From contig DATFOC010000076.1 in assembly GCA_035265935.1 (NCBI GenBank), positions 4,084-68,083 of the forward strand: 64,000 nt of DNA. The letters run 5' to 3'. How positions within the stretch are numbered: the stretch's first letter is position 1; each line of letters begins with the position of its first letter. The position numbers and the translations under genes were made by a program. Shown piece after piece: positions 8,586 to 61,833 of the stretch. This DNA is from Gaiellaceae bacterium (GTDB taxonomy: Bacteria > Actinomycetota > Thermoleophilia > Gaiellales > Gaiellaceae). Under the pieces are notes generated by a model. That model saw nothing but the letters and a program-made list of their open reading frames with translations. It did not search any database and was not told the DNA's origin.

Positions 8586-8754
8586 GGAGGGCTTGGTGGA
8601 ACGTCGCTCGTCGCAGGCGTGCGATGCTCGTTCCGAGGCAAGGACGCAGGGAGCGTTCGTATCGATGAGATACGGGCGCGAACTGAGGACGCAGACCTCG
8701 GGGCGAAGCAGCGCGGCGGCCCTGCGGCACAGTCGTCGTTTCGCCAAGCCCTCC
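8586..8754. repeat. Foldback element B: 169-nt long imperfect hairpin
   Basis: GGAGGGCTTGG (8586-8596) pairs perfectly with CCAAGCCCTCC (8744-8754). The helix continues inward (8597-8606/8734-8743, 8610-8617/8721-8728, 8621-8638/8696-8714) to an apical hairpin at 8653-8679. Confidence 0.7.
8652..8680. promoter_or_regulatory. Apex dyad AGCG-TT-C-GTATC-GATGA-GATAC-G-GG-CGCG
   Basis: The same 29-bp dyad architecture occurs at 10807-10835 and 61738-61766, with an AT-rich core in a GC-rich context. Confidence 0.5.
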
Positions 8755-8757
8755 TTA

Positions 8758-9783
8758 TCAGCGGTTCCAATGGGGGTAGGCGACTGCACCGGTGATCAGC
8801 TCGCGCGCCCGGAGGGCTGCGACCGAGTAAATGCGGATCGTGCACGGCAACTCGGCGCGGCAGGCCGCGCCGACGACGTTGCGCCCGTCCCGAGACGGAT
8901 GGTCGGCGTACATGGGCTGCTCTCGCCGCGTCCGGCGGTCGAGGTCCACAGCATGGGCTCGACCCGAGTGCCTGTTCACGAGTGCGAGCTCCGCGCCCCA
9001 CTCCGTGGGAATCGTCGCGAGGAGGAGCGGCGAGCGGGAGACCCAGGCGAATGGTCTGACGCCGTATCGACCGAGCTCGGCGAACCGATTCGGAAGCGTC
9101 CGCATTACGGGCGCCCGCTGCCCTCCTTTGGTCCCCATCTGCCAGATCCGCGGCTTGAAGCAACCGGTGCCCACCGGCCGGTAGGCGAAGACGATCGAGT
9201 CTGTCCCCCAGACTGGGTGGCTGCTCCGACCACCCGTGGTCAAGCGACGTTTCGAGCTCCCGTCGATCTGGGCGCTGTAGATGTCGAACCCGCACTCGCC
9301 GGAGGGCGGCCGAGGGAGGTAGACGTCGTACGCGAGCGTGGCTCCGTCCGGCGAGATGCTCCACGTGGTCACCTCACGCCCCTCGATCATGTCGACGCTT
9401 CGATCCTCCAGGTCGATGTTGACGAATGCCTTTCGTTGAAAGGCCAGCAGATGGCCGGAGTCGGGTAGCCATCCCGCCGGCTTCGCCCAAGCGATGAAGC
9501 GCTCGCCGCGGCCGTTGGGGTCGACCGTGTAGATCCCGCCCCGCCGCGAGATCGCGATCGTCCGGCCGTCGGGCGAGACCAGCCCGTAGTGCCCGAGCGC
9601 CAGTCGTCTCATTCGGGTGCCGTTGACGTCGCCGATCCAGACCGCCTTCTGTGGCTTTCCGACGGCCTTCGTGTAGACGAGGTGCTTGGAGGACAGCGCG
9701 GCAGTCGGTGCAGTGTCGTCACCGATCCCGCAGGCGGAGCAGAGAAGGGCGGCCGCCGCGATGAGCGCCGCCCGCGTCATCAC
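8758..9783 (-). CDS. Lipoprotein with TolB-like (PD40/WD40-like) beta-propeller repeats
   Basis: 341 aa. Lipobox signal (LIAAAALLCSACG) and repeated SPDGR/ISPDG motifs typical of PD40 repeats. Confidence 0.75.
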   Translation of the reverse strand: MMTRAALIAAAALLCSACGIGDDTAPTAALSSKHLVYTKAVGKPQKAVWIGDVNGTRMRRLALGHYGLVSPDGRTIAISRRGGIYTVDPNGRGERFIAWAKPAGWLPDSGHLLAFQRKAFVNIDLEDRSVDMIEGREVTTWSISPDGATLAYDVYLPRPPSGECGFDIYSAQIDGSSKRRLTTGGRSSHPVWGTDSIVFAYRPVGTGCFKPRIWQMGTKGGQRAPVMRTLPNRFAELGRYGVRPFAWVSRSPLLLATIPTEWGAELALVNRHSGRAHAVDLDRRTRREQPMYADHPSRDGRNVVGAACRAELPCTIRIYSVAALRARELITGAVAYPHWNR

Positions 9784-10739
9784 AACTCCGAGGGAACGGG
9801 CTCGAGCTTCTCGATCTTCACGCCTTCGGCGAGTCGCGTCAGCTCGCGCGGCTCGAACCGGCCGGCGCCGACCTCCTGGACCGCAGCGGCTCCGGCCGCG
9901 ACCGCCCGCTGGAGTGCCTCCTCGGGAGCGAGGTCGTCGAGCCGCGCGGCCATGTAGCCGGCCAGGAGCACGTCGCCCGACCCGGCCGGCGAGACCGTCG
10001 CGACCTCGGGCACCGCGGCGTGGAACCGCTCGACCTCGCGCTCCGCCCGGAGCAGCGCGTAGCAGCCCGAGCTGAGCGTGATCAGGACGTTCCTGGCGCC
10101 CAGGTCGGAGATGTGGTCGAGCGCCTGGACGAAGTCCTGCGGGTCGTGGAACTCCTGCCCGACGAGCCCTTCGGCCTCCCGCTCGTTCGGCGTGACGAGG
10201 AACGGCTCCGCCTCCGTTCCGAGCCGGAGCGGTTGTCCCTCCGCGTCGAGAATCGCCCGGATCCCGCGCCGCTCCAGCTCGCGAATCGCCTCCGCGTAGA
10301 AGCCCTCTTCCACACCGCGCGGCAGCGTGCCTGCGAAGACGACCGCGTCAGCGCCGCGCGAGAGGTAGCGGACCTTCTCCAACAGGAGCTCGAGCTCTTC
10401 CGGCGTCACGTGCGGCCCCCACTCGTTGATCTCCGTGTACGTGCCGCCGGTCGGGTCGACGACGGCCGTGGAGGTTCGCGACTCCTCGCCGATTCGCACG
10501 AAGTCGTTGAGGATCCCCTCGCGGGTGAGCTCGCTGACGACCCGCGCGCCGGTGCGGCCGCCTGCCAGCCCGGTGGCAACGACTGGGACGTCCATCCGTT
10601 TCAGCGCGCGGGCGATGTTGACTCCCTTGCCGCCGGCGAGCGTCAGGCCGGCGCTCGCTCGGTGGCGCTGGCCGGGCTGAAAGTTGGGGACCGTCACCGT
10701 GCGGTCGAGGGCCGCGTTCATGGTCACCGTCACGATCAT
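9780..10739 (-). CDS. pfkB: 1-phosphofructokinase family sugar kinase (PfkB/ribokinase fold)
   Basis: 319 aa. MIVTVTMNAALDRT..., GGKGVNIARAL and the C-terminal anion-hole motif SPAGSGDVLLAG are typical of FruK/PfkB kinases. Confidence 0.85.
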   Translation of the reverse strand: MIVTVTMNAALDRTVTVPNFQPGQRHRASAGLTLAGGKGVNIARALKRMDVPVVATGLAGGRTGARVVSELTREGILNDFVRIGEESRTSTAVVDPTGGTYTEINEWGPHVTPEELELLLEKVRYLSRGADAVVFAGTLPRGVEEGFYAEAIRELERRGIRAILDAEGQPLRLGTEAEPFLVTPNEREAEGLVGQEFHDPQDFVQALDHISDLGARNVLITLSSGCYALLRAEREVERFHAAVPEVATVSPAGSGDVLLAGYMAARLDDLAPEEALQRAVAAGAAAVQEVGAGRFEPRELTRLAEGVKIEKLEPVPSEL

Positions 10740-10740
10740 G

Positions 10741-10902
10741 TGACCCTCCCGGTGACGTTGCCGCGTTCCTGGCGTGCGAAAAACGCCTCAGGCCTGCCAG
10801 GAAGGGCGCGTGCATATCCAAGGGATATGTGCGCGACCGAGGGGCGCGCGTGAGGTGATTTTGCAGCCGCCAGGGACACGGAGGGCGTTGCCGGGATGGT
10901 CA
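10741..10902. repeat. Foldback element C: 162-nt long imperfect hairpin filling the carboxypeptidase/pfkB spacer
   Basis: The outer stem pairs 10741-10759 with 10884-10902 (18 of 19 positions pair, 4 of them G:T). The helix continues through 10761-10774/10868-10881 and 10776-10790/10851-10864 to the apex CATATCC-AAG-GGATATG (10813-10829). Confidence 0.7.
10807..10835. promoter_or_regulatory. Apex dyad CGCG-TG-C-ATATC-CAAGG-GATAT-G-TG-CGCG (candidate operator or RNA apical stem)
   Basis: Near-perfect 29-bp palindrome about 70-95 nt upstream of the pfkB start. Shared with 8652-8680 and 61738-61766. Confidence 0.5.
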
Positions 10903-12018
10903 CCTAAACCAGCCTCCAATGTGATCCAGTGTGCGACCCGCATACCAGCCGGTGCGGTCGAAGAAGCCAGGGTCGTCGCGCGCCTCGGCCGCGATGAGCG
11001 GCGTCCGTCCGAGGAGACGCTTGCGGTCGTAGAAGCGGACCTCGCCGACGACTTGTCCCTCGCGGACGGGAAGGTCGAGCCGGGACGGCAGGACGACGCG
11101 CTCCACCAGCGGCCGCCCGATCCGGACCGGTCTCCGCATCGGCCGCGCGGCGACGACGGAAACCGGCTCCGAGCCCCACTCCGCGGGGATCCGGCCATAG
11201 ACACGGTCCGCCGACGCGAGCGGCACGAACGCGTACCGCGACATGCCCCAGGCGAGCAGCTCCTCGAGGTCCGCGTTGCGGACGGCGCGCGACGGGCTTC
11301 CGAGAATCGTCGCGTAGATCGTCACGTGGTTGCCGCGGGCTGCCGCGACCTGATTCCACCCGGCGCCGGAGGTGTGGCCGGTCTTGACGCCGAAGGTGCC
11401 CGGGAACTCGCCCAGGAGGTCGTTCCAGGTGTGGAGCGTCCGGCCGCCGGAGATCGAAGCCGACTCCTGGCGCACCAGCTGACGGATTATCGGCTCGCGC
11501 ATGGCGGCCATCGCGAGCTTCGTGACGTCCCGAGCGCTCGAGTAGTGGCCCTGCGCGTCGAGCCCATCCGGCCGGACGAAGCGCGTGTCGGGAAGCCCGA
11601 TGCTGCCGGCCGTGTTGTTCATCAGCGTCGGGAACGGCTCCCCGACCCGACCCCCGACGAACTCTCCTAGCGCAACGGCCGAGTCGTTCGCGCTCTGAAT
11701 CAGCGCGGCCGCCATCAGCTCGCGGACGCGGATCCGCTCCCCGGCGCGCAGACGGATCGTCGACCCGGTCACGCCGACGGCGTCTGGATCGACAGTCACC
11801 AGCTCGTTCGGCCTCGCGTGGGCCACGGTAAGCAAGGCGGTCATCAGCTTCGTGATGCTCGCGATCGGCAGCCGATCGTGAGCCCGGCGGGCAAGCAGCA
11901 CCTCGCCCGTCTGCGCCTCCTGCACGAGGTAGGCGCGAGCGTCGACCTCAGGAGTCGCCGCGGACGCGGCTGAGGTCGAACAGGCAAGGACAGCGACAAG
12001 GACCGCCAGTCGCTTCAC
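10900..12018 (-). CDS. D-alanyl-D-alanine carboxypeptidase (serine peptidase S11, PBP5 type)
   Basis: 372 aa. Signal peptide, SxxK active site (ASITKLMT), SGN-like and KTG (VKTGHT) motifs. Confidence 0.85.
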   Translation of the reverse strand: MKRLAVLVAVLACSTSAASAATPEVDARAYLVQEAQTGEVLLARRAHDRLPIASITKLMTALLTVAHARPNELVTVDPDAVGVTGSTIRLRAGERIRVRELMAAALIQSANDSAVALGEFVGGRVGEPFPTLMNNTAGSIGLPDTRFVRPDGLDAQGHYSSARDVTKLAMAAMREPIIRQLVRQESASISGGRTLHTWNDLLGEFPGTFGVKTGHTSGAGWNQVAAARGNHVTIYATILGSPSRAVRNADLEELLAWGMSRYAFVPLASADRVYGRIPAEWGSEPVSVVAARPMRRPVRIGRPLVERVVLPSRLDLPVREGQVVGEVRFYDRKRLLGRTPLIAAEARDDPGFFDRTGWYAGRTLDHIGGWFR

Positions 12019-12027
12019 GGGCCTAGG

Positions 12028-12351
12028 TTAGTCGACGCGGATCGGCATGCCGACCGTGAGAGCCGTAGGGTCGACCCCTGGATTCAGCTCCATCAGGCGG
12101 TCGACCGTCGTGCCGAACTTCTCCGCGATCGAGGCAAGCGTGTCGCCGCTACGGACTGCATACGTCGAGGCGGGGGCGAGCTTGACGCCCGCCTTCTTCG
12201 GCGCCTCCTCGACCTGCTGAGCCGTCACCGTCGGCTGCGCCGCCTCACCTCCATGGAGCGCCGGCCGTGCGAGCAGCACGACCATCGTCACTGCCGCCAG
12301 CGCCAGGGCCGGAAAGCCGTAGCGGACGAACCACCAGGGGATCGTCACCAT
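12028..12351 (-). CDS. LysM domain-containing membrane-anchored protein
   Basis: 107 aa. N-terminal TM helix, then a LysM consensus (YAVRSGDTLASIAEKFGTTVDRLMELNP...IRV). Confidence 0.75.
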   Translation of the reverse strand: MVTIPWWFVRYGFPALALAAVTMVVLLARPALHGGEAAQPTVTAQQVEEAPKKAGVKLAPASTYAVRSGDTLASIAEKFGTTVDRLMELNPGVDPTALTVGMPIRVD

Positions 12352-13253
12352 CCCGCAACCGCCCAGACCTCGCTGCGCAGGCGAGCGGCCTCGGCTGCGG
12401 CGGCAGACCGCCAGTCGTCCTCACCCTGGCGATAGGCGTAGATGACCGAACGCGCCGCTGCGACGAGCGCGCTGGCCGGTCCGCTCGTGAACGCTCTGGC
12501 CACGTCTCCGGGTTTCGCTCCCTGGGCGCCGAGACCTGGCAGCAACAACACGGATTGCGGCAGCAGCCTCCGCGCCTCGGCAACCGCGCGCGGGTGGGTC
12601 GCGCCGATGACGGCTCCGACGCTCGACAGGCCTCGCTCGCCGACGACGTCCGCTCCCCACTCGGCGACCTGCGAAGCCACGTGCTGCCAGAGCGACCGGC
12701 CGTCGGAGAGGACGAGGTCCTGGATCTCCCCGCCGCCTGCGTTCGAGGTCCTGACGACGCAGAAGATCCCGCAGCCGTGCCGGCGGCAGGCTGCCAGGTA
12801 CGGATCGACCGAGTCCCGCCCCAGGTAGGGGTTCACCGTCAGCGCGTCCGCGACCGGCTCGGCGCCCTCACCACGGGGCTCCAGGTACGCCGCCGCGTAG
12901 GCGCGCGCGGTCGAGCCGATGTCGCCTCGCTTCCCGTCGGCGAGCACCAGGAGCCCGGCCGCCCGCGCGTAGTCGCAGACCTCCTCGAAGGCGGCAAGCC
13001 CCGGCGCGCCGAGCGCCTCGAAGAAGGCCAGTTGCGGTTTGACGCCGACCACGTAGGCCGCGACCGCATCGATGATCCCGCGGCAGAAGCGCGCCGATGC
13101 CTCGGCCGGCGGTTCGCCCCGGAGCTCCACCGGAAGGAGCTCGGGCCTCGGGTCGAGACCGACGAGCACCTGGGACTGCTTGCGGTCGACGGCGTCCGCG
13201 ATGCGGTCGCCGAAGGTCGCCCCACGCACGTTCACGGCCTCCACCTCGGACAC
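12345..13253 (-). CDS. pyrF: Orotidine 5'-phosphate decarboxylase (type 2)
   Basis: 302 aa. VGLDP..., KPQLAFFE and ADGKRGDIGST motifs of long-type PyrF. Confidence 0.9.
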   Translation of the reverse strand: MSEVEAVNVRGATFGDRIADAVDRKQSQVLVGLDPRPELLPVELRGEPPAEASARFCRGIIDAVAAYVVGVKPQLAFFEALGAPGLAAFEEVCDYARAAGLLVLADGKRGDIGSTARAYAAAYLEPRGEGAEPVADALTVNPYLGRDSVDPYLAACRRHGCGIFCVVRTSNAGGGEIQDLVLSDGRSLWQHVASQVAEWGADVVGERGLSSVGAVIGATHPRAVAEARRLLPQSVLLLPGLGAQGAKPGDVARAFTSGPASALVAAARSVIYAYRQGEDDWRSAAAAEAARLRSEVWAVAGW

Positions 13254-13283
13254 GGACTGAGCGTACTGGCGGCCCCAGACATG

Positions 13284-13309
13284 GAACGGGGGCCTTCCGG
13301 CCCCCGTTC
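13284..13309 (-). terminator. Perfect 11-bp GC-rich hairpin downstream of hup
   Basis: GAACGGGGGCC-TTCC-GGCCCCCGTTC lies 21 nt after the hup stop. There is no clear U-tract. Confidence 0.5.
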
Positions 13310-13329
13310 GAACTTCCGCCCCGGGGGTG

Positions 13330-13614
13330 CTACATCGAGCTCTTGACGGCGCTCTTCAGCTGGCTCCCCGCCGAGAACTTGGGCACCTTCGATGCGGGGA
13401 TGTGCACGCGCTCGCTGGGGTTGCGGGGGTTCACGCCCTGCCGGGCCGCGCGATTCTGCACTGAGAACTTTCCGAATCCGGTGAAGGCAACTTCCTCGCC
13501 GTTTCGGAGGGCGTCGGTGATCGACTCCAGGAACGCGTCGACTGCCTCACCGGCTTCGCGCTTGCCGATGTTGGCCTTCTGCGAGACGCGATCCACGAAT
13601 TCCTGCTTGGTCAC
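13330..13614 (-). CDS. hup: HU family DNA-binding protein
   Basis: 94 aa. MTKQEFVDRVSQKA...FTGFGKFSVQNRAARQGVNPRNP matches the HU/IHF signature. GTG start with SD GGGAGGAG. Confidence 0.92.
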   Translation of the reverse strand: MTKQEFVDRVSQKANIGKREAGEAVDAFLESITDALRNGEEVAFTGFGKFSVQNRAARQGVNPRNPSERVHIPASKVPKFSAGSQLKSAVKSSM

Positions 13615-13662
13615 GAAAGACTCTCCTCCCTGACGTCAATGCCAGTACCAATGCCTCTAAGG

Positions 13663-13691
13663 ACCCTAACAGCGATCCCGATTCCGCTCAA
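13663..13691 (-). promoter_or_regulatory. Candidate promoter of hup (TTGAGC-N17-TAGGGT)
   Basis: On the minus strand, TTGAGC (rc of 13686-13691), a 17-nt spacer and TAGGGT (rc of 13663-13668) lie about 50 nt upstream of the hup start, in a locally AT-richer patch. Confidence 0.3.
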
Positions 13692-13719
13692 CCATGCGGT
13701 TTGCGGCGGTTTTCTCGCT

Positions 13720-14244
13720 TTAGAGCAGCTCTCCTGCCCGAAAAAGGGCCCTCAGGCGCACCCCGACACGCGCGAGCTCGTCGGTTCCCCCCTCCTCCCG
13801 GTCGACCACACAGACCGTCGTGCGGCACTCCAGGCCGGCCTCGCGAAGCGCCTCGACGGCCGCGACTGCGGCGCCTCCAGAGGTCACGACATCCTCAACG
13901 AGGCACACCCGCTCGCCAGTCTCGAAGGCGCCCTCGATGCGGTTGGAGGTGCCGTAGTCCTTCGCCTCCTTGCGCACGATCAAGAACGGCAGCCGCGAAG
14001 CGAGCGAGGAGGCGGCGGCGAGGGCAACGGCGCCGAGCTCGGGGCCTGCGAGCCTCACAGCGGCCGGTTCGTGCTCGCCGACGACCGTGGCGACTCGCGC
14101 GCCGATCGCCTCGAGGAGCTCCGGCCTCGTCTCGAAGCGGTACTTGTCGAAGTAGTGCGAGGAGCGGCGGCCGGAGCGGAGGACGAAGTCACCCTCGAGG
14201 AGGGCGTGCTCGCGGAGAGCCGACCGCAGCTCGTCATCGGTCAC
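13720..14244 (-). CDS. pyrE: Orotate phosphoribosyltransferase
   Basis: 174 aa. FVLRSGRRSSHYFDK and the PRPP-binding loop VCLVEDVVTSGG. Confidence 0.92.
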   Translation of the reverse strand: MTDDELRSALREHALLEGDFVLRSGRRSSHYFDKYRFETRPELLEAIGARVATVVGEHEPAAVRLAGPELGAVALAAASSLASRLPFLIVRKEAKDYGTSNRIEGAFETGERVCLVEDVVTSGGAAVAAVEALREAGLECRTTVCVVDREEGGTDELARVGVRLRALFRAGELL

Positions 14245-14778: not shown

Positions 14779-14798
14779 GCCGGGAACATACTGCGACG

Positions 14799-30606: not shown

Positions 30607-31428
30607 CTAGGAGCGATCGCCGACGACGTTTCTCAGCACCCCGATCCGCTCGACCTCGAGCTCGACCTCATCGCCCGGCTGGAGCCAGCGCCCGTCACAG
30701 TGCTCCAAGATGCAGCCGGTCCCGACGGTGCCGGAACCGAGGACGTCGCCGGGCCAGAGCTCGGTGTTCCGGCCCGCCTGCTCGACGATGCGATTCCACG
30801 GGTGGTAGAGGTCGGCCAGATTCCCGCGCGAGCGCTCTTCGCCGTTCACGCGGGCGACCATGACGGCCGACGAGCCGTCGAACTCATCCGGCGTGACGAC
30901 GACCGGGCCGAGGCTCGTCGCGAAGTCCTTGCCCTTGGCAGGCCCGAGGCCGACCTTCATCTCTTCGCGCTGGACGTCACGCGCGGACCAGTCGTTCATG
31001 ATTGTGAAGCCGCCGATCTGCCCGTCAGCGCCGATCACCGCCGCGACTTCGAGCTCGTAGTCGAGCTCGTTCGTATCGCCGGGATACGGGATCTCGGCCT
31101 CCGGCCCATAGATCACGCTGGGGTTCGAGAAGTAGAAGACCGGAATGCGGTACCACTCCTCCGGCACCTCCAGGTCACGCTTCGCGCGCGCCGCCTTGAC
31201 GTGCTGCTCGAAGGCGTAGAAGTCGCGGACGGACGGCGGGTGCAGCACCGGCGGCCGGAGCTCGACCTCGGCGAGCGGGTACTCGGCGTGCTCGCGCGCC
31301 TTTCCGCCGCCCGTGAAGAACGACTGGAGCGTCTGCGCGGCGAGCTGGATCACGCGGTCGCCCTCGATCCGGCCCGGCCACCCGCGCTGGAGCTCGGCCC
31401 CTTTGGGGCTGAACATGCACAACTTCAC
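30607..31428 (-). CDS. Fumarylacetoacetate hydrolase (FAH) family protein, short type
   Basis: 273 aa. DYELEVAAVIG, NDWSARD, GKDF and GDVLGSGT motifs of the FAH fold. Confidence 0.88.
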   Translation of the reverse strand: MKLCMFSPKGAELQRGWPGRIEGDRVIQLAAQTLQSFFTGGGKAREHAEYPLAEVELRPPVLHPPSVRDFYAFEQHVKAARAKRDLEVPEEWYRIPVFYFSNPSVIYGPEAEIPYPGDTNELDYELEVAAVIGADGQIGGFTIMNDWSARDVQREEMKVGLGPAKGKDFATSLGPVVVTPDEFDGSSAVMVARVNGEERSRGNLADLYHPWNRIVEQAGRNTELWPGDVLGSGTVGTGCILEHCDGRWLQPGDEVELEVERIGVLRNVVGDRS

Positions 31429-56437: not shown

Positions 56438-56514
56438 GATTACCTCCTTCGAAGTTTCTCTCCCCGTTCCCTGCCTCCGTTCATCGAAACAGCACGCATC
56501 GCTAGGCTCGCCCG

Positions 56515-57546
56515 ATGGCGACTCCGAACGGACTCGCGGAGCTCCATACCCATCTCGGCGGCTCGGTCGCGACCGAGATCATGTGGACGCTCGCGCACGA
56601 GCAGGGCATCGCGCTTCCGGTCAAGGACTACTGGGAGTTCGACGGGCTCGTCACAGTGTCCGACCCGCGGGGGGTCGCCGACCTGGCGGCGCTCGACCAG
56701 ATCTACAAGTGGACGGAGCTGATCCAGTCGAGCCCGCTCGCCGTCGAGCGCTCGGTGCATGCGGCGATCGGCGGGGCATACCGCTCGCAGGGGATCACGA
56801 CGCTCGAGCTCCGCTTCAACCCGATGAAGCGGAATCGGGGCGGCGAGCGCGACCTCGACCACATCATCGTCGCGGCGATCCGCGGGCTCGACCGCGCGAG
56901 CCTCGAGTACTCGCAGGTGCGCGCTGGGCTGATCCTGATGATGGACCGGACGTTCACCGAGCGGCAGAACGCGATCATCGTCGAGAAGGCGATCCGCTAC
57001 GCGCCACGCGGAATCGTCGGGATCGACATCGCCGGGCCTCGCCCGGACGGCGCGGGGCCGTACCCGTACCGCGACCTCCTTCCGCTGATCGAGCAGGCGC
57101 GGGAGGCCGGACTCGGCGTGACGATCCACGTCGGCGAGGAGGGCGGCGAGTTCGGAATCGCGGAGATCCGCGAGGTGGTCTCGACGCTGCGGCCGGACCG
57201 GATCGGTCACGGCATCCTTGCCGCGCAGGATCGCAAGCTGATGGAGCAGCTTCGCGAGGCCGAGATCGTCCTCGAGATCTGCCCGACGTCGAACCTGCTC
57301 ACGAAGGCGCTGGAGAGCGAGGACGCCGTCCGGGCCACGTTCCGCGCCTTCACCCAGCACGAGGTGCCGTTCACGATCGCCACGGACGGCCCGGAGATGA
57401 TGCGAACCCATCTGCGCGACGAGTTCGAGCTGCTGCTGAAGATCGGAGCGCTGGACGAGGACCGGCTCTCGGATGCCAATCGCCGCGGCCACGAGGCGAC
57501 GTTCATCGCGGCGGCTGAAGGCGATGAGAGTGCCCGACGCCGCTGA
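56515..57546 (+). CDS. add: Adenosine deaminase family protein
   Basis: 343 aa. AELHTHLGGS, HVGEE, IGHG and TIATDGP metal/catalytic motifs. Confidence 0.88.
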   Translation: MATPNGLAELHTHLGGSVATEIMWTLAHEQGIALPVKDYWEFDGLVTVSDPRGVADLAALDQIYKWTELIQSSPLAVERSVHAAIGGAYRSQGITTLELRFNPMKRNRGGERDLDHIIVAAIRGLDRASLEYSQVRAGLILMMDRTFTERQNAIIVEKAIRYAPRGIVGIDIAGPRPDGAGPYPYRDLLPLIEQAREAGLGVTIHVGEEGGEFGIAEIREVVSTLRPDRIGHGILAAQDRKLMEQLREAEIVLEICPTSNLLTKALESEDAVRATFRAFTQHEVPFTIATDGPEMMRTHLRDEFELLLKIGALDEDRLSDANRRGHEATFIAAAEGDESARRR

Positions 57547-58456
57547 TAGCTTCCCCGCGGCCGTGAGGCCGCTGGACGGCGTAACCGTCGTCGACCTGAG
57601 CCGCCACCTGCCGGGGCCGTTCGCCAGTCGGGAGCTCCTCGAGCAGGGCGCGCGCGTGATCCGGCTGCTGCCGCCGGGTGGAGACCCGATGGCCGACCTC
57701 GCGCCCGCCTGGCACGAGGCGATGAACGCCGGCAAGGAGACCGTGCTCCTCGACCTGAAGACCGAGCCTGAGCACGGTCGCGCGCTCTGCGCCGACGCCG
57801 ACGTCGTCCTCGAGAGCTTCCGGCCGGGCGTCGTCGAGCGTCTCGGCGTCGGGCCGGACGACCTCCCGGAATCGGTCGTCTACTGCTCACTGACCGGCTT
57901 CGGCAGCGGCGGCCGCCACGTGAACCGCGCCGGCCACGACCTCAACTACCTCGGCTGGGCGGGTGTGCTTGCAGACACGGCTCCCACGCTGCCGCCGACC
58001 CAGATCGCCGACCTTGCAGGCGGAGCGCTGACGGCGGTCACGCGGATCCTCGCCGCCCTCCTCCAGCGTGAGCGGACGGGCCGCGGCGCGCGCATCGTCG
58101 TGTCGATGACACACAGCGCGCACAGGCTCGTCTCGCACCGACTCGGCGGCGAGCCGATTCCCAAGCTGCTGACGGGCGGGCTGGCCTGCTACGGCATCTA
58201 CACGACGGCCGACGGACGCCACCTCACGGTCGCTGCGCTGGAAAGCCCCTTCTTCGCGCGCCTGTGCGAACTGCTCGAGCTGTCGGACCTGACCGACCGG
58301 CATTTCGATCCGGACGCTCAGGAGGAGATCGGCGACGCCCTCGCGGAGCGGATCGCGTCGAAGCCGCTCGCGGCCTGGCTCGAGCTCTTCGACGGCGAGG
58401 ACGTCTCCGTCGGCCCGGTCGCGACCATCGAGGAAGCTGCAGTGGAGCTCTCGTGA
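57524..58456 (+). CDS. CoA transferase family III (CaiB/BaiF)
   Basis: Starts at ATG 57524: PLDGVTVVDLSRHLPGPFASREL..., ESFRPGVVERLG and GHDLNYLG. Confidence 0.85.
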   Translation: MRVPDAADSFPAAVRPLDGVTVVDLSRHLPGPFASRELLEQGARVIRLLPPGGDPMADLAPAWHEAMNAGKETVLLDLKTEPEHGRALCADADVVLESFRPGVVERLGVGPDDLPESVVYCSLTGFGSGGRHVNRAGHDLNYLGWAGVLADTAPTLPPTQIADLAGGALTAVTRILAALLQRERTGRGARIVVSMTHSAHRLVSHRLGGEPIPKLLTGGLACYGIYTTADGRHLTVAALESPFFARLCELLELSDLTDRHFDPDAQEEIGDALAERIASKPLAAWLELFDGEDVSVGPVATIEEAAVELS

Positions 58457-60000
58457 GAACCCGGATCGCACTGCTGATGCTCTCGCTGGCCGCCGCGGGC
58501 GCCGCGACGCTTACGCTGTCGCTCGCGAGCCCTGCCACGGTCCGCTCACCGGTCCCGTGGGCGACGCTCGCCTTCTCCAAGTCAGAAGTGGCGGGCGGAG
58601 GCGTCTACGTCGCCGGGCGGGGCCGCGCGCGGCTCATCCTTCCTGCCGCCTCCGATCCGGCGTGGTCGCCGGACGGCCGCCGGCTCGCGTATCTCGGTCC
58701 CGGCGCGGGTGGCGCGGCGGACGTCTACGTCGCCGACGCGGACGGAACGAACCGCGGCCGCCTGACGGCAACCGAGCTCGAGGAGGCCTCGCCGACCTGG
58801 GCCCCTGACGGTCGGCGACTGGCGGTCGAGCGAAACGGGTCGATCGTCCTTCTGCGGGCCGACGGCGTCGAGGGCCGGACGCTCGCGCGCGGTCTAGAGC
58901 CGGCCTGGTCGCCCGGAGGACAGCGGATCGCGTTCTCCGCCGGCGGCGACCTCGTCGTCGTCCGCACCCAGGGGGGTCGGCCGCAGAAGGTGACGAGCTC
59001 GCCGGCGTCCGAGTCGAGCCCCTCGTGGGCTCCCGACGGCCGGCGGCTCGCATACGTCACGGACGAGACCGGCGCCGCCGACATCCGCGTCCTCGACCTT
59101 CGCAGCCGGGCGATCGTGCAGGTCACCGCTGATCCCGCGGTCGATTCCGAGCCCGCGTTCTCGACCAACGGCAAGCGCGTTGTGTTCGTCAGCGACCGGG
59201 CCGGCGTCGAGCAGATCGTCGGCGCTCCTGCCTCCGGGGGAGCAGCGGCACTCGTCTCCGCGATCCAGCTCCCGGCCCACCCGACCGCCCGGCCCGTCCA
59301 GCGCCCCCTCGAGCTCCTGCCCGATTTCGACCAGCAGCCCCCACGGGATCTCGAGGTGCGCCGGACCGGGAGGCGCTTCCTCCTGTGGTTCACCTCGGCG
59401 GCCGACAACGTGGGGCTCGGCCCGTTCATCGTCAACGGCCGACGACGAGGGGCAGGCGCAATGCACGCCAGCCAGCGGGTCCGGCTCACGGACGGTTCGC
59501 TCCGAACCTACCCCGAGGTCGGCGTCTGGCGCTACAACGCGACCTCCGATCACTCCCACTGGCATCTCTTCGCCTTCCAGCGCTACGAGCTGCGCCGCGG
59601 TGACGGCTCCCTCGTCGTCCGCGATCGCAAGAGCGGCTTCTGCATCGGCGACCGGTACGGCGTGGCTCCGGGCCGAATCGCGGACCGCACATTCCGGCCG
59701 GTCTTCCGGGGGTTGTGCAACCTCTACCAGCCTGGTGCGTCGGACGTGAACGCCGGAACCTCCGTCGGCTTCTCGGACCGCTACCACTCTCGCCTCGACG
59801 GCCAGAACGTCGACCTGACGAAGGTGCCGCCCGGACGTTACGTCCTCGTGAACCGTGCGAATCCGAGCGCCGAGCTCCACGAGCTGCGGTACGAGAACAA
59901 TGCGGCGTCCGTCGCGATTCGGGTCAGCCGGCCGCGAGGCCGGAGGAGCGCGCCCGGCGTGAGAGTCCTCGCGACCTGCCCGGACTCAGGTCGCTGCTAG
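58453..60000 (+). CDS. Secreted PD40 (TolB-like) beta-propeller fused to a lysyl-oxidase-like domain
   Basis: Starts at GTG 58453 (GTGA overlap). Signal peptide, repeated WSPDGRRLAY/WAPDGRRLA motifs, then DHSHWHLFAFQRYEL, RKSGFCIGD and GFSDRYHSRLDGQNVDLTKVPPGRYVL, resembling LOX copper-site and LTQ-region motifs. Confidence 0.8.
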   Translation: MRTRIALLMLSLAAAGAATLTLSLASPATVRSPVPWATLAFSKSEVAGGGVYVAGRGRARLILPAASDPAWSPDGRRLAYLGPGAGGAADVYVADADGTNRGRLTATELEEASPTWAPDGRRLAVERNGSIVLLRADGVEGRTLARGLEPAWSPGGQRIAFSAGGDLVVVRTQGGRPQKVTSSPASESSPSWAPDGRRLAYVTDETGAADIRVLDLRSRAIVQVTADPAVDSEPAFSTNGKRVVFVSDRAGVEQIVGAPASGGAAALVSAIQLPAHPTARPVQRPLELLPDFDQQPPRDLEVRRTGRRFLLWFTSAADNVGLGPFIVNGRRRGAGAMHASQRVRLTDGSLRTYPEVGVWRYNATSDHSHWHLFAFQRYELRRGDGSLVVRDRKSGFCIGDRYGVAPGRIADRTFRPVFRGLCNLYQPGASDVNAGTSVGFSDRYHSRLDGQNVDLTKVPPGRYVLVNRANPSAELHELRYENNAASVAIRVSRPRGRRSAPGVRVLATCPDSGRC

Positions 60001-60669
60001 CCCCAGCGCGGCCGGCAGCGCGAAGAGGTCGGGGAGCCGGTCTTCGGCTTCAGGAAAGGCGTCCTCCCGGTCGACGAGGAACGCCTGCATGCCGAGCGCC
60101 CTGGCGCCCTCGAGGTCGTCCTCGGGCGAGTCGCCGACCATCGCGGCCCGCTCGGCAGGGACACCGAGCCGGTCGAGCACGGCCTGGAAGATCGTCGGGT
60201 GGGGCTTCACCTTCCCGTGCACCCGGGACGACAGCGCGGCGTGCACGCGGATGCTGTGGTGCGCGAGGAACTCGTCGACGTCGCGACCCGTGTTCGAGAC
60301 GAGGCCGAGCTTCAGCCCGTGCTCACGCAGGTGGTCGAGCACCGGCAGCGCATCGTCGAAGAGGTCGAAGTTGTGCGCTTGCTCCCAGGCCTTGGTCATC
60401 TCGACCGCGGCCTCGTACGCGCGATCCGTGTCTCCGCCCATGCCGCGGATGATCCGCTCGGTGAACCCGACCCAGATCTCCTCGTCGTGGCGGAAGTCCG
60501 GATGCTTGTGGAGCCCCTCCACGGCCTTCGCGCGGGCATCCCGATAGAGGGCCGGATCGAGCTCCAGGCCGAAGCGACGACCCAGCCGCTGATACCCCTC
60601 CGGGCCGAGGTCCGGCCCCGGCTTGGCCAGCGTGAAGTCGAGGTCGAAGAGAACCGCCTGGATGTCCAT
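59986..60669 (-). CDS. HAD family hydrolase
   Basis: Starts at the internal ATG 60669: MDIQAVLFDLDFTL (DxD motif), VSNT and GDSPEDDLEGA. Confidence 0.85.
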   Translation of the reverse strand: MDIQAVLFDLDFTLAKPGPDLGPEGYQRLGRRFGLELDPALYRDARAKAVEGLHKHPDFRHDEEIWVGFTERIIRGMGGDTDRAYEAAVEMTKAWEQAHNFDLFDDALPVLDHLREHGLKLGLVSNTGRDVDEFLAHHSIRVHAALSSRVHGKVKPHPTIFQAVLDRLGVPAERAAMVGDSPEDDLEGARALGMQAFLVDREDAFPEAEDRLPDLFALPAALGLAAT

Positions 60670-60835
60670 CAGTGCCTCTGCAGGTAATGCAGCCCCGCTT
60701 CTGGGTCGTGAGCACCAAGCCAGAGACCGCACTCGCCCGCAGCCAAGGCTGAGAGCCTTGGTAAGGGCGAGGGTGGGCTCTGGCGCCGCGTGATCACGGG
60801 CCAGAAGCCGGCGTGTATTGCCTGTAGAGGCACTG
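60670..60835. repeat. Foldback element A: 166-nt long imperfect hairpin filling the whole C-N hydrolase/HAD spacer
   Basis: CAGTGCCTCTGCAGGTAAT (60670-60688) pairs with ATTGCCTGTAGAGGCACTG (60817-60835), with 2 G:T pairs. Inner helices are 60697-60704/60801-60808 and 60719-60738/60765-60784. The apex is CCAAGGCT-GAG-AGCCTTGG (60743-60761). Confidence 0.7.
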
Positions 60836-61561
60836 TTACGGCGTAGGAGTTGGCCACCGGTAGGCATCTGCCTGCCTGCTGGCCAGCGAGGGAAGCTTCG
60901 CGCGAACGTTCTCGAGCCGACGCCTGTCGAGCTCTGCGGAGATCACCGTCTCCTCGTCCGGCGCACACGCGACCACGGTCCCCCACGGATCCGCGATCAG
61001 CGAGCGCCCGTAGCTGAGACGCCCCGGCAGCGTCTCGCCGATCTGGGCCGCGGCCGCGACGTAGTACTGATTCTCGACTGCACGGGCACGGAGCAGCAGC
61101 TCCCAGTGATCCTTTCCGGTGTACAGCGTGAAATGCGCCGGAACCGTGACGAGGTGCGCGCCCTGGAGCGCGAGGATCCGGTAAAGCTCGGGGAAGCGGA
61201 CGTCGTAGCAGACGGTCAGCCCGGTGGCCCAGCCTTCCACCTCGAGGACGACCGGCTCGGCGCCCGGCTCCTCCGCGTCCGACTCCCGATACACGTGGCC
61301 GCCGACCTCGACGTCGAACATGTGGATCTTCCGGTAGAGGCCGGCGATCGACCCGTCCGACTCGAAGACGATGCTCGTGTTGGAGAGCTTGTCGCGACCC
61401 TCCCGACGCTCGGTGATCGAGCCGCCGACGAGCGTGATCCCGTGCCCGCTCGCCCAGGCCGCCATCGCCTGAACCGACTCGCCGTCCTCGAGCGTCTCCG
61501 CTGCACCATGGAGCACGTCGGGGGTGCCGATCGCGTTCCACTTCTCCGGGAGGACGACCAC
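60836..61561 (-). CDS. Carbon-nitrogen hydrolase (nitrilase superfamily); true start probably upstream (CTG at 61684)
   Basis: The ORF track starts at GTG 61561 (MVVLPEKWN). The same frame upstream encodes the conserved N-terminus ...LRVACVQLTSRDDKAANIEKAEQLVARAAATGAD without an ATG/GTG/TTG. Catalytic Cys region: GLTVCYDVRFPE. Confidence 0.85.
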   Translation of the reverse strand: MVVLPEKWNAIGTPDVLHGAAETLEDGESVQAMAAWASGHGITLVGGSITERREGRDKLSNTSIVFESDGSIAGLYRKIHMFDVEVGGHVYRESDAEEPGAEPVVLEVEGWATGLTVCYDVRFPELYRILALQGAHLVTVPAHFTLYTGKDHWELLLRARAVENQYYVAAAAQIGETLPGRLSYGRSLIADPWGTVVACAPDEETVISAELDRRRLENVRAKLPSLASRQADAYRWPTPTP

Positions 61562-61670
61562 GTCGGCGCCCGTCGCCGCCGCGCGTGCGACGAGCTGCTC
61601 GGCTTTCTCGATGTTCGCCGCCTTGTCGTCCCGGCTCGTGAGCTGGACGCAGGCGACGCGAAGCGTGTCA

Positions 61671-61833
61671 GGAGTTCGTTTCAGGGTGATGCTCGTCGTC
61701 AGGGTGCGATGGGTGGATGCCAGGCCCGGACGCAGACCGCGTCCATATCAAGTCGATATTGGCGCGGTTGAGGACGACGCCTGGCGCCGCCCAGCACGGC
61801 CTGGCGGCACAGCCTCACTCTGGAACGAGCTCC
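61671..61833. repeat. Foldback element D: 163-nt long imperfect hairpin in the divergent C-N hydrolase/MFS spacer
   Basis: Pairings: 61671-61693 with 61811-61833 (19 WC, 3 G:T, 1 mismatch); 61700-61716 with 61787-61803; 61719-61725 with 61779-61785; 61735-61744 with 61761-61769. The apex is ATATC-AAGTC-GATAT. Confidence 0.65.
61738..61766. promoter_or_regulatory. Apex dyad CGCG-TC-C-ATATC-AAGTC-GATAT-T-GG-CGCG
   Basis: In register with the dyads at 8652-8680 and 10807-10835. It lies centrally between two divergent genes. Confidence 0.5.

What the first reader, a model, noticed from the sequence alone, without database searches (positions are those of the whole stretch)
8586..61833. Family of four ~165-nt intergenic foldback elements with unrelated arms, a shared apex motif and a + strand wobble bias
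Hand-folding shows that four spacers are each almost completely occupied by one long imperfect hairpin: B 8586-8754 (169 nt), C 10741-10902 (162 nt), A 60670-60835 (166 nt) and D 61671-61833 (163 nt). Each is a rod of roughly 60-70 paired positions broken only by small bulges and internal loops. The arms share no recognisable sequence between copies, so they do not look like a recently spread MITE or REP. Size and architecture are nevertheless the same, and B, C and D carry the same 29-bp apex dyad. Non-Watson-Crick positions are very asymmetric. By my count about 25 are G:T on the + strand against about 2 A:C, so the fold is clearly better as a + strand RNA or ssDNA. That strand is antisense to the flanking minus-strand genes of A, B and C. 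In A, C and D the left arm abuts or covers the SD/start of the downstream minus-strand gene. In A, B and C the right arm starts on, or within 3 nt of, the upstream gene's stop codon. I cannot match this to any RNA family or repeat class I know.
Basis: seen in the sequence. Interest (0 to 1): 0.85.

Follow-up and report, generated by a model that had tools for sequence, protein, structure and literature searches.

The report
Mobile hairpin repeats of Gaiellales bacteria
The four long hairpins are copies of an apparently undescribed small mobile DNA repeat that lands at gene ends in a group of soil actinobacteria, and whose fold is conserved on one strand only; this is a new example of a known kind of element, not a new class of RNA.

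Summary
B, C, A and D are single rod hairpins of 64-70 pairs. Z-scores against shuffles are -9 to -13 on the + strand, which is 20-30 kcal/mol more stable than the - strand. The four carry 34 G:T pairs against 2 A:C mismatches.

The claim of "unrelated arms" is wrong. B, C and D are clear homologues. A covariance model built only from copies in other genomes finds all four on the + strand, at 142, 130, 114 and 30 bits, and nothing else in the window.

The family is a dispersed repeat. At least 75 full copies occur at unrelated loci in Gaiellaceae, Gaiellales and Thermoleophilia MAGs, and Rfam has no match.

It is mobile:
- A and D are absent from the same sites in the closest relatives.
- D sits inside the 5' end of a coding sequence and cuts off its start codon.
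- Two genomes carry a copy at the same TA in opposite orientations.
- Type-1 copies are flanked by TA on both sides, against a 1% background.

Pairing is kept by compensatory changes, and G:U intermediates greatly outnumber A:C, also among private mutations (27 vs 8).

Best reading: a MITE-like, TA-targeting non-autonomous transposon with a strand-specific single-stranded stage. RNA versus ssDNA is unresolved, and no transposase partner was found.

The parts
8586..8754 (+). Element B, a type-1 copy with ends GGAGGGCTTGG...CCAAGCCCTCC. It is a rod hairpin and lies antisense to the flanking minus-strand genes.
   Evidence: MFE -109.6, z -9.4. The covariance model built from foreign copies scores 129.9 bits at 8583-8755 on +, against 36.6 bits on -. 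It is present in 6 near-identical assemblies.
8654..8678 (+). Apex motif of B (CGTTCGTATC-GATGA-GATACGGGCG).
   Evidence: Exact match to the apex pattern.
10741..10902 (+). Element C, a type-3 copy with ends GTGACCC...GGGTCAC. It fills the spacer between the DacC-like gene and pfkB.
   Evidence: MFE -109.5, z -9.7. The model scores 114.2 bits at 10737-10905 on +. An orthologous copy in L038 (Gaiellaceae MAG) is 92.6% identical while the flanks are about 81% identical, and the differences include compensatory changes.
10809..10833 (+). Apex motif of C.
10737..10750 (-). pfkB start codon (10739-10737) and its SD GGGAGGG (10750-10744). The SD lies inside the left arm of C.
   Evidence: Sequence; Pfam PfkB.
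10900..10902 (-). Stop codon TGA of the D-Ala-D-Ala carboxypeptidase gene, inside the right end of C.
60670..60835 (+). Element A, a diverged type-3 copy with ends CAGTGCCTCT...AGAGGCACTG and a replaced apex. It occupies exactly the spacer between the TAA of the CN-hydrolase gene and the ATG of the HAD gene.
   Evidence: MFE -126.1, z -13.1. The model scores 30.3 bits, E 1.5e-5, on +, against 8.3 bits on -. nhmmer gives E 0.0015 to L067 over the full length. The site is empty in L118-L121.
60675..60679 (-). SD-like AGAGG for the HAD gene (ATG at 60669-60667), supplied by the left arm of A.
   Evidence: Sequence. The empty sites of relatives have only 1-5 nt between stop and start.
61671..61833 (+). 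Element D, a type-2 copy with ends GGAGTTCGTTTCAGG...CTGGAACGAGCTCC. It is inserted after codon 2 of the CN-hydrolase coding sequence.
   Evidence: MFE -112.0, z -12.1. The model scores 142.1 bits at 61668-61834 on +. The site is empty in L118, L119, L122 and L124.
61740..61764 (+). Apex motif of D.
61837..61839 (-). Orphaned ancestral ATG of the CN-hydrolase gene. D (163 nt, which shifts the frame) now separates it from the body of the gene.
   Evidence: Alignment with L118 and L119: ATG TCC GGC ACG CTG CGC GTC GCC TGC versus the window's ATG CTC [D] TGACACGCTTCGCGTCGCCTGC. The public gene call starts at the internal GTG at 61561.

Best explanation
The four hairpins are copies of a dispersed, mobile, non-coding palindromic repeat of about 165 bp. 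It behaves as a MITE-like non-autonomous transposon and is endemic to Gaiellales/Thermoleophilia (Actinomycetota).

Shown:
- The family has many copies at unrelated loci in many genomes.
- Copies are present or absent at orthologous sites.
- Copies can sit in either orientation at one and the same TA.
- Most type-1 copies are flanked by TA on both sides, usually as C-TA-[element]-TA-R.
- A deletion derivative keeps both ends.

Inferred:
- The element is moved in trans by a transposase that targets TA. An IS630/Tc1-mariner-type enzyme fits best (TA duplication, CTAG preference), and a TA/CTAG-targeting IS5-group enzyme is the alternative.
- TA is only about 1% of dinucleotides in this 69% G+C genome and is concentrated in TAA/TAG stop codons. 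Copies therefore land at gene ends.
- The copies that survive rebuild a stop codon (T + AG...) and bring an SD-like GGAGG/GAGG near their end. That is why they lie flush between stop and start codons.

Second layer:
- Shown: the whole element is kept as a hairpin on one defined strand by compensatory changes, with G:U but hardly any A:C intermediates.
- Inferred: one strand must fold in single-stranded form at some stage, either as a transcript or as ssDNA during mobilisation or replication.
- The stable strand is preferentially antisense to neighbouring genes. I read this as counter-selection of the most stable hairpin inside operon mRNAs, not as a cis function in those mRNAs.
For: Reality of the fold and membership of the family.

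Distribution:
- The apex pattern scanned over GTDB species genomes gave 117 loci. 71 of them fold as one hairpin of about 165-190 nt (MFE -100 to -145). Every titled locus among them, and four further partial or end-truncated copies, comes from a Gaiellaceae, Gaiellales, Thermoleophilia or 'Actinomycetes' MAG. None of the matches from other taxa folds in this way.
- Flanking proteins differ for nearly all copies.

Mobility:
- The A and D sites are empty in relatives with 84-90% amino-acid identity.
- D interrupts a coding sequence.
- L024 is filled where L042 is empty. L013 and L084 carry the copy on opposite sides of a small gene.
- L064 and L066 have the same TA site and the same flanks but opposite orientations. 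L028 and L072 show the same spacer with opposite orientations and different subfamilies.
- L059 carries a 66-nt deletion derivative that keeps both type-1 ends.

TA flanks of type-1 copies (n = 35):
- On the 5' side, C at -3 in 25, T at -2 in 22, A at -1 in 25.
- On the 3' side, T at +1 in 32, A at +2 in 21, and G or A at +3 in 23.
- TA makes up 1.05% of window dinucleotides.
- IS630-family elements duplicate TA and prefer CTAG (PMC2170065 and its reference to Tenzen & Ohtsubo 1991). RUP/IS630-Spn1 is the precedent for a MITE of this type (PMC2229807).

Structure:
- 95.0% of 3794 cells form standard pairs, against 78.5% in shuffles (0/500) and about 40% in slid controls. 41 of 51 pairs show changes on both sides.
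- The same structure read on the antisense strand gives 81.5%. There are 549 G:U cells against 35 A:C cells.
- The sense strand has the lower MFE in 74 of 75 copies, by 27 kcal/mol on average.
- Private changes at consensus Watson-Crick pairs are G:T 27 against A:C 8 (p = 0.002), plus 31 private double compensations. The unpaired-site control is 7 against 7.

Orientation:
- Between tandem genes, 18 copies are antisense and 4 sense. Flanking genes lie on the opposite strand 71 times and on the same strand 40 times.
- The GC skew of the flanks, read in sense orientation, is negative in 53 cases and positive in 24, p = 0.001.
Against: - No autonomous element or transposase with matching ends was found in the window (0-27 kb scanned), in about 1.4 Mb of fetched loci, or in IMG/VR.
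- The window copies themselves lack clean TA flanks: B has CG/TT, D CA/GA, and A CA/TG, the last of which extends the palindrome. The empty site of D contains no TA.
- A palindromic TA duplication cannot be told from insertion into T^A without duplication.
- The outer 18 bp, the presumed transposase-binding ends, are less conserved than the inner arms (majority fraction 0.63 vs 0.83). They occur in at least ten sequence types that keep only the pairing. This is the reverse of a classical MITE, although part of it is an ascertainment effect because loci were fetched by their apex.
- A dsDNA cut-and-paste DDE mechanism gives no reason for strand-specific G:U tolerance.
- C is more conserved than its coding flanks between two species (92.6% vs about 81%), which hints at in-place constraint rather than plain selfish DNA.
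Confidence: 0.7

Rival explanations
1. A single-strand (ssDNA) hairpin transposon. A structure- and strand-specific enzyme would recognise the folded sense strand, meaning the conserved inner rod and apex rather than the variable termini. Candidates are an IS200/IS605-type or RAYT-type Y1/HUH enzyme, or an integrase acting as IntI does on attC. Cutting would occur at a set distance at the foot of the rod, with insertion at (C)TA and no true duplication.
For: - Pairing is strand-specific, including among private changes, and also holds with DNA energy parameters.
- Length is constant at about 165 nt, with sequence-variable but always paired outer arms.
- The inner arms are conserved in copies not fetched through the apex pattern (L124, L144).
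- The flanks are asymmetric: C at -3 in 71% of copies, against the mirror-image G at +3 in 37%, Fisher p = 0.008.
- In L064 and L066 the C next to the TA follows the orientation of the element.
- AGGACGC occurs as a direct repeat on both arms, facing itself in an internal loop.
- Orientation is non-random relative to local strand composition.
- Neighbouring copies are co-oriented: 4 of 4 in the window, 2 of 2 in L054 and 2 of 2 in L074.
Against: - No Y1/HUH or integrase gene was seen near any copy.
- IS200/IS605 relatives have separate subterminal hairpins, not one whole-length rod.
- By established knowledge (Ton-Hoang et al. 2010, Cell), their active strand lies on the lagging-strand template, the G-rich gene-sense strand. 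Here the stable strand lies mostly on the C-rich, gene-antisense strand.
- The TA on both sides is explained more simply as a duplication.
Confidence: 0.15
2. A multicopy family of structured small RNAs. Each would be transcribed from the + (sense) strand, mostly antisense to the neighbouring operon, and would act as RNA. Possible roles are antisense or RNase III-dependent control of the flanking genes, or a protein sponge through the purine-rich AGGA-containing internal loop. Mobility would only be the way the genes spread.
For: - G:U outnumbers A:C about 16 to 1, and covariation is extensive.
- Orthologous copy C is more conserved than its coding flanks and shows compensatory changes in place.
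- The sense strand is preferentially antisense to neighbouring genes.
- bcr1 of the Bacillus cereus group is a precedent for a mobile repeat that is transcribed and keeps its RNA structure through compensatory changes (PMC3184786).
Against: - No promoter-like or terminator-like site lies in or next to the four copies, and no conserved promoter-like sequence is evident in the family consensus.
- The terminal loop is variable while the stems carry the conserved sequence, the opposite of most RNA recognition loops.
- Copies are absent from orthologous sites of close relatives and can disrupt a gene.
- There are no expression data.
Confidence: 0.12
3. Host cis-acting hairpins in operon transcripts, serving as mRNA stabilisers, processing sites, attenuators or bidirectional terminators. 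They would arise or be maintained for the benefit of the flanking genes.
For: - Copies lie flush with stop codons and SD/start sites.
- 13 copies lie between convergent gene ends.
- C is conserved across two species.
- ERIC and Correia elements have such orientation-dependent effects on transcripts (PMC3049150, PMC2229807).
Against: - The strand that folds best is the one not present in the mRNA in 18 of 22 tandem-gene cases.
- There is no U-tract.
- Relatives manage with 1-5 nt spacers at the same junction.
- D damages its host gene.
Confidence: 0.08
4. Integron attC sites (or a cassette array), or chance palindromes of a G+C-rich genome.
For: attC sites are also imperfect hairpins that are conserved in structure, vary in sequence, are strand-specific and sit after stop codons (established knowledge).
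Against: - The flanking genes are housekeeping genes in conserved synteny, such as guaA, IMPDH-like, pfkB, pyrF and HU.
- By inspection of the ends I saw no RYYYAAC/GTTRRRY boxes, and no intI was found among the genes scanned.
- The inner sequence is conserved rather than the ends.
- Chance is excluded by z-scores of -9 to -13 and by the family.
Confidence: 0.01

Closest known systems
RUP (repeat unit of pneumococcus), a MITE thought to be mobilised by IS630-Spn1; IS630/Tc1-mariner MITEs in general
   Same: Both are small non-coding elements in many copies with TA at the insertion site. Both have terminal inverted repeats and are presumed to be mobilised in trans (PMC2229807, PMC2170065).
   Different: - RUP is 107 bp and its ends match a known IS. 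Here no cognate IS is known.
- Here the ends are the least conserved part and the whole 165 bp is one hairpin.
- Here pairing is maintained on one strand only.
ERIC/IRU (127 bp) and YPAL/RU-2 (about 168 bp) of enterobacteria and Yersinia; Correia/NEMIS of Neisseria
   Same: All are whole-length or long imperfect palindromes of 100-170 bp lying in transcribed intergenic regions next to genes. They fold into long RNA hairpins, their effects depend on orientation, and Correia elements also target TA (PMC3184786, PMC2229807, PMC3049150).
   Different: - The phylum and the sequence are different.
- The element here is G+C-rich and has at least ten end types on a shared inner rod.
- Its stable strand is preferentially antisense to genes. 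Strand asymmetry of this strength (G:U 549 vs A:C 35 cells) is not a described feature of those families, as far as I know.
bcr1 of the Bacillus cereus group (about 155 bp)
   Same: Both are mobile, non-autonomous and unevenly distributed between related strains. In both, compensatory base changes keep a secondary structure at the single-strand (RNA) level (PMC3184786).
   Different: - bcr1 has a 5-bp direct-repeat target duplication and a two-stem cruciform-like fold, and it is known to be transcribed.
- Here there is one rod, TA flanks and no expression data.
REP/REPIN elements with RAYT transposases; IS200/IS605-derived PATEs
   Same: Both are dispersed palindromic repeats acted on as single-stranded hairpins in a strand-specific way. 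REPINs are also long hairpins built from inverted halves (PMC3733652, PMC2817692).
   Different: - REPs are 20-40 nt and carry a GTAG or CGTC tag. No such tag is visible at the ends of these elements.
- No RAYT or TnpA gene was seen.
- TA lies on both flanks here.
Integron attC sites
   Same: Both are recognised, if at all, by structure rather than sequence. Both are strand-specific hairpins lying directly after stop codons.
   Different: There is no cassette array, no integrase and no R/L boxes. Here the inner sequence is conserved and the ends vary, which is the reverse of attC.

Membership tests
Bacterial MITE (miniature inverted-repeat transposable element) | Small (under about 400 bp), non-coding, multicopy and dispersed at unrelated loci | tested here: met
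   The elements are 160-170 bp. Indels of 1-4 nt and a variable loop exclude coding. There are 75 full copies, and nearly all have different flanking proteins.
Bacterial MITE (miniature inverted-repeat transposable element) | Terminal inverted repeats | tested here: met
   The whole element is an inverted repeat. The outer helix of 18 pairs is 94.5% paired across 75 copies.
Bacterial MITE (miniature inverted-repeat transposable element) | Target-site duplication flanking the element | tested here: inconclusive
   In type-1 copies T is at -2 in 22 of 35 and A at -1 in 25 of 35, and T is at +1 in 32 of 35 and A at +2 in 21 of 35, against a 1% background for TA. A palindromic TA cannot be told from insertion into T^A, and window copies A, B and D lack clean TA flanks.
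Bacterial MITE (miniature inverted-repeat transposable element) | Evidence of mobility, meaning filled versus empty orthologous sites | tested here: met
   The A and D sites are empty in L118-L124. L024 is filled where L042 is empty, and L013 and L084 differ likewise. L064 and L066 carry the copy at the same TA in opposite orientations.
Bacterial MITE (miniature inverted-repeat transposable element) | A cognate autonomous IS with matching ends that encodes the transposase | tested here: not met
   None was found in the window, in about 1.4 Mb of fetched loci or in IMG/VR. Whole genomes could not be searched, so absence is not shown.
IS630/Tc1-mariner-derived MITE | TA target with a 2-bp TA duplication and a CTAG preference | tested here: inconclusive
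   The flank consensus for type 1 is C-TA-[element]-TA-R, which is consistent. It is not seen for A or D.
IS630/Tc1-mariner-derived MITE | Ends similar to those of an IS630-family element in the same genomes | not testable with these tools
REP/REPIN (RAYT-associated) | A 20-40 nt palindrome carrying a GTAG or CGTC tetranucleotide tag at one end | tested here: not met
   The ends are (C)TA-GGAGGG, TA-GAGCTCG or CAGTGCC, with no GTAG or CGTC tag (definition from PMC3733652).
IS200/IS605-type single-strand transposon derivative (PATE) | Separate subterminal hairpins, no duplication, a fixed target word 5' of the left end, and the active strand on the lagging-strand template | tested here: inconclusive
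   There is one whole-length rod, not two subterminal hairpins. The 5' flank CTA is more constant than the 3' flank. The stable strand lies mostly on the C-rich strand, opposite to the expectation.
Integron attC | Lies between cassettes of an array next to intI, with R''/L''/L'/R' boxes (RYYYAAC...GTTRRRY) | tested here: not met
   The neighbours are syntenic housekeeping genes, and the ends do not match the boxes by inspection.
Any Rfam 15 RNA family | A covariance-model match at or near the gathering score | tested here: not met
   At gathering thresholds the only match in the window is a tRNA. At E up to 10 nothing relevant lies over the four elements, the best being mir-H2 at 26 bits against a gathering score of 92.
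Intrinsic (Rho-independent) terminator | A G+C-rich hairpin followed by a U-tract | tested here: not met
   The terminator scan finds none in either region.

The most novel reading that the evidence does not exclude
The element may be a new type of mobile hairpin that is recognised and moved as a folded single strand, either ssDNA or an RNA intermediate. The specificity module would be the conserved inner rod, with AGGACGC facing itself across an internal loop next to the apical TATC-N5-GATA stem. The cut and join sites would be set by distance at the foot of a rod of constant length. That would explain why the termini are free to vary in sequence as long as they pair, why G:U is tolerated and A:C is not, why length is constant, and why neighbouring copies are co-oriented.
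Probability: 0.15. Interest if true: 0.8.

Novelty: new member of a known kind. Interest (0 to 1): 0.45.

Why it matters
Gaiellales and Thermoleophilia are among the most abundant and least cultured soil actinobacteria, and no interspersed repeat family seems to have been described for them (searches; Rfam).

Practical consequences:
- The repeat breaks assemblies. One contig ends inside A.
- It misleads gene callers. The CN-hydrolase gene is called from an internal GTG.
- It rewires gene junctions by supplying stop codons and ribosome-binding sites, or by cutting off a start codon.
- Its presence or absence could serve as a strain marker.

Biological interest:
- It is a clean example of a transposon-like repeat whose whole length is under strand-specific structural constraint.
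- That makes the question of whether some bacterial MITEs pass through a single-stranded stage directly testable.

Tried and rejected
- **Rfam.** Searches at gathering thresholds and at E up to 10 found no family.
- **Integron attC.** Rejected on gene context and on the ends.
- **Terminator or promoter.** No consensus sites in or next to the elements.
- **Coding peptide in the hairpin.** Rejected because copies differ by 1-4 nt indels and in loop length.
- **Fifth copy at 31068-31092.** This is a chance apex-like match inside a coding sequence, scoring 15.9 bits with the covariance model.
- **Further long hairpins in the window.** None found.
- **Autonomous partner.**
  - Solo or distant end matches in the loci turned out to be chance, remnants, or one 66-nt deletion derivative.
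  - Proteins recurring across loci are response regulators, an SDR and LigD, not transposases.
  - Window genes from 0 to 27 kb and around the elements are housekeeping genes.
- **Viral contigs.** There are 17 and 5 pattern hits, but none is a copy of the family.
- **Mutational bias as the cause of the G:T excess.** Not supported. Unpaired sites give 7 against 7. The expected deamination bias of the gene-sense or leading strand would enrich the opposite strand.
- **Insertion polymorphism among near-identical strains.** B and C are present in all six assemblies, and A and D in the one informative contig, so no exact empty site was obtained.
- **First sliding-window fold script.** It timed out and was replaced by RNALfold.

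Full report

The window is about 69% G+C throughout. Each of the four intervals folds into one unbranched hairpin of 64-70 pairs.

RNAfold energy and z-score against 200 dinucleotide-preserving shuffles:

| Element | + strand MFE / z | - strand MFE / z |
|---|---|---|
| B | -109.6 / -9.4 | -81.1 / -5.1 |
| C | -109.5 / -9.7 | -85.1 / -6.6 |
| A | -126.1 / -13.1 | -106.1 / -9.7 |
| D | -112.0 / -12.1 | -82.3 / -5.3 |

- An RNALfold scan of both strands of the whole window finds no other single hairpin longer than about 130 nt.
- The + strand folds contain 34 G:T pairs and only 2 A:C 1x1 mismatches. The + strand is also the more stable one with DNA parameters.
- The apex dyad is present in B, C and D. 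With up to 3 mismatches the pattern gives 7 matches in the window, against 0.17 expected by chance.
- The positions relative to stop codons, SD sequences and start codons are as described. D is the exception (section 3).

The one observational claim that fails is that the arms are unrelated.
- B, C and D align over most of their length.
- A profile of the family finds them at E 1e-20 to 1e-35.
- A covariance model built only from 30 copies of other genomes scores D 142, B 130, C 114 and A 30.3 bits (E 1.5e-5). All are on the + strand. The next best hit in the window is 15.9 bits.
- A is a diverged member. It has the CAGTGCC...GGCACTG ends of one subfamily and a replaced apex.

**2. What family is this?**

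Rfam 15 has nothing at gathering thresholds or at E up to 10.

The apex pattern was scanned over one genome per GTDB species.
- 71 of these fold as one hairpin of 165-190 nt with MFE -100 to -145. Four more are partial or end-truncated copies.
- All the copy-bearing loci whose record titles were listed come from Gaiellaceae, Gaiellales, Thermoleophilia or 'Actinomycetes/Actinomycetota' MAGs.
- The matches in other phyla do not fold in this way.
- A Gaiellaceae MAG (L038) is syntenic with the window at 80-85% nucleotide identity. The pfkB protein of the window is identical in GCA_036795225.1 and in five other assemblies.

The flanking proteins of nearly all copies differ. This is therefore a dispersed repeat, not one orthologous RNA gene.

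The outer 18-25 nt of the arms fall into at least ten sequence types:
- type 1, GGAGGGYTTGGCGGAA..., which includes B
- type 2, GAGCTCGTTTCAG... or GAACTCG..., which includes D
- type 3, (C)AGTGCCCC... or GTGACCC..., which includes C and A
- several others

The inner arms are much more alike.

One caveat applies. The loci were fetched through the apex, so the invariance of the apical stem in alignment A2, including its U:G wobble, is there by construction. Three copies found without that pattern show that the apex can change while the inner arms stay conserved. L124 has a compensated TACC...GGTA, L144 has a decayed apex, and L159 scores 32 bits.

**3. It is mobile**

The CN-hydrolase gene lying between A and D was used to fetch 80 related metagenomic loci.

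*Site of A.* In the closest relatives (84-90% amino-acid identity) the site is just a stop codon plus 1-5 nt plus the start codon: TAAGCGATG, TAAGCCAATG, TAGAGCCGGTG and TGAGATG. The window has TAA[166 nt]ATG.

*Site of D.* The relatives read ATG TCC GGC ACG CTG CGC GTC GCC TGC. The window reads ATG CTC [163 nt] TGACACGCTTCGCGTCGCCTGC.
- D therefore sits after codon 2 of the gene and shifts the frame.
- No ATG, GTG or TTG remains in frame upstream of the conserved N-terminus.
- The public gene call for this protein starts at an internal GTG, 35 residues into the Pfam domain.

*Other evidence.*
- L024 is filled where L042 is empty.
- L013 and L084 carry the copy on different sides of a small gene.
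- L028 and L072 have copies of different subfamilies in the same spacer, in opposite orientations.
- L064 and L066 share flanks that are 85-95% identical and the same TA site, yet the element is in opposite orientations.
- L059 has a 66-nt deletion derivative that keeps both type-1 ends, directly after a TAG stop.

No copy occurs in IMG/VR.

**4. Target**

In 35 type-1 copies the 5' flank is C (25), T (22), A (25). The 3' flank is T (32), A (21), then G or A (23). TA makes up 1.05% of window dinucleotides. The consensus is C-TA-[GGAGGG...CCCTCC]-TA-R.
- This is what a TA duplication at CTAR would give, as in IS630/Tc1-mariner elements. ISY100 duplicates TA, and IS630 prefers TA within CTAG (PMC2170065 and its reference list). 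RUP is the MITE precedent (PMC2229807).
- Because TA is its own complement, the same string would also arise from insertion into T^A with no duplication.
- The flanks are somewhat asymmetric. C at -3 occurs in 71% of copies and the mirror-image G at +3 in 37%, p = 0.008.
- Window copies A, B and D lack clean TA flanks, and the empty site of D has no TA.

In a 69% G+C genome, TA occurs mainly in TAA/TAG stop codons and at gene junctions. The element ends read (T)AG... and carry GGAGG or GAGG. Together these facts explain why copies start on stop codons and supply ribosome-binding sites (C: GGGAGGG; A: AGAGG).

**5. The strand-specific fold**

On the 75-copy alignment the consensus structure has 51 pairs.
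- 95.0% of 3794 cells form standard pairs. Shuffles give 78.5% (0 of 500 reach the observed value), and slid controls give about 40%.
- 41 pairs show changes on both sides, including all 18 pairs of the outer helix.
- Read on the antisense strand, the same structure is 81.5% paired.
- There are 549 G:U cells against 35 A:C cells.
- The sense strand has the lower energy in 74 of 75 copies, by 27 kcal/mol on average.

Much of this is inherited from subfamily founders, so I also counted changes private to one copy within three subfamilies. At consensus Watson-Crick pairs there are:
- 27 G:T against 8 A:C (binomial p = 0.002)
- 31 private double compensations
- 52 other mismatches

At unpaired sites the corresponding transitions are 7 against 7. 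A mutational bias from deamination of the gene-sense or leading strand would enrich the opposite strand.

The orthologous pair, C in the window and in L038, differs at 12 of 162 positions (92.6% identity; the flanks are about 81% identical). Two to three of the changes are compensated pairs, and only two are disruptive.

The conclusion is that pairing of one defined strand is under selection. The data cannot say whether this acts on RNA or on ssDNA, or on the element lineage or in place.

**6. Orientation**

- Between tandem genes the stable strand is antisense in 18 cases and sense in 4.
- 13 copies lie between convergent gene ends and 6 between divergent starts.
- Flanking genes are on the opposite strand 71 times and on the same strand 40 times.
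- The GC skew of the flanks, read in sense orientation, is negative 53 times and positive 24 times (p = 0.001). The element itself is G-rich, with a skew of +0.13.
- Neighbouring copies are co-oriented in the window (4 of 4), in L054 and in L074.

This argues against a cis function of the stable hairpin in the host mRNAs. It fits counter-selection of the strongest hairpin inside operon transcripts. It also fits a link to replication direction, and the fetched 8-kb loci cannot separate the two.

**7. Interpretation**

The best-supported reading is a MITE-like non-autonomous transposon family of Gaiellales. It would insert at TA and be moved in trans, probably by an IS630-type transposase, with a strand-specific single-stranded stage of unknown nature.

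Three findings do not fit the classical picture:
- No partner IS was found.
- The ends vary more than the interior (0.63 vs 0.83, partly through ascertainment).
- A dsDNA cut-and-paste mechanism does not predict tolerance of G:U over A:C.

These points keep two rivals alive. One is a single-strand hairpin transposon recognised through its conserved inner rod. The other is a mobile family of structured RNAs.

Comparable known elements are RUP, Correia/NEMIS, ERIC, YPAL and bcr1 (PMC2229807, PMC3184786, PMC3049150). bcr1 already shows compensatory changes at the RNA level.

I therefore class the finding as a new member of a known kind, in a lineage where none had been described (literature searches found nothing). 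Its strand asymmetry is unusually strong and deserves an experiment.

Noticed in passing
window 61561-61839 (-): The CN-hydrolase gene has lost its start codon to element D. The ancestral ATG (61839-61837) is now 163 nt upstream and out of frame, and only CTG and ATC codons remain in frame. A public gene call starts at the internal GTG at 61561, which removes the first beta-strand of the domain. The gene may be inactivated, or it may use a non-canonical start.
   Followed up: partly
window 61671-63090: Element D and the MFS transporter gene (61862-63094) are both absent from the four closest metagenomic relatives (L118-L121). In those, the gene on the tRNA side abuts the CN-hydrolase gene. L122 and L124 have the MFS gene but a 60-nt spacer without D.
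   Followed up: partly
window 8488-8517 (-), with 8480-8487 and 8532-8537: A G+C-rich stem-loop on the minus strand (GGCCCAGGC...GCCTGGGCC) is followed by UUUGUGCU. It lies 10 nt upstream of the SD of the IMPDH-like gene. A TTGACA sits on the minus strand at 8537-8532. This could be a terminator, an attenuator or a 5'-UTR structure between element B and that gene.
   Followed up: no
window 63499-63572 (+): A tRNA gene (Rfam tRNA, 59.9 bits). Its sequence is 95-97% identical in relatives whose flanking sequence is only 70-78% identical.
   Followed up: no
L226 (Logan SRR5215203_255307), contig end: The contig stops 52 nt upstream of the HAD start codon, which is inside element A. The hairpin repeat seems to break short-read assemblies.
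   Followed up: no
window 8681 and 8713-8715 (element B): The otherwise near-identical assembly GCA_036795225.1 (L220) lacks one A and a GCG present in the window's copy of B, and in that respect is closer to the family consensus. The window lineage therefore appears to have acquired small insertions in B recently.
   Followed up: partly
L059 about 3125-3190: A 66-nt hairpin made of both type-1 ends with the interior deleted, directly after a TAG stop codon. It is a deletion derivative of the family.
   Followed up: partly
L032 3818-4209 versus L081 4951/4952: A 393-nt insertion between two otherwise 92-96% identical loci. It reads like a small membrane-protein ORF and is not a hairpin element.
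   Followed up: no
window 31068-31092 (+): An apex-like sequence (CGTTCGTATCGCCGGGATACGGGAT) inside a coding region. There is no surrounding hairpin and the covariance model gives only 15.9 bits, so it was judged a chance match.
   Followed up: yes
family consensus, alignment A2 columns about 66-90 and 119-135: AGGACGC occurs on both arms as a direct repeat, not an inverted one. The two copies face each other in a purine-rich internal loop just below the apical stem. This conserved asymmetry defines the polarity of the element, and its role is unknown.
   Followed up: no
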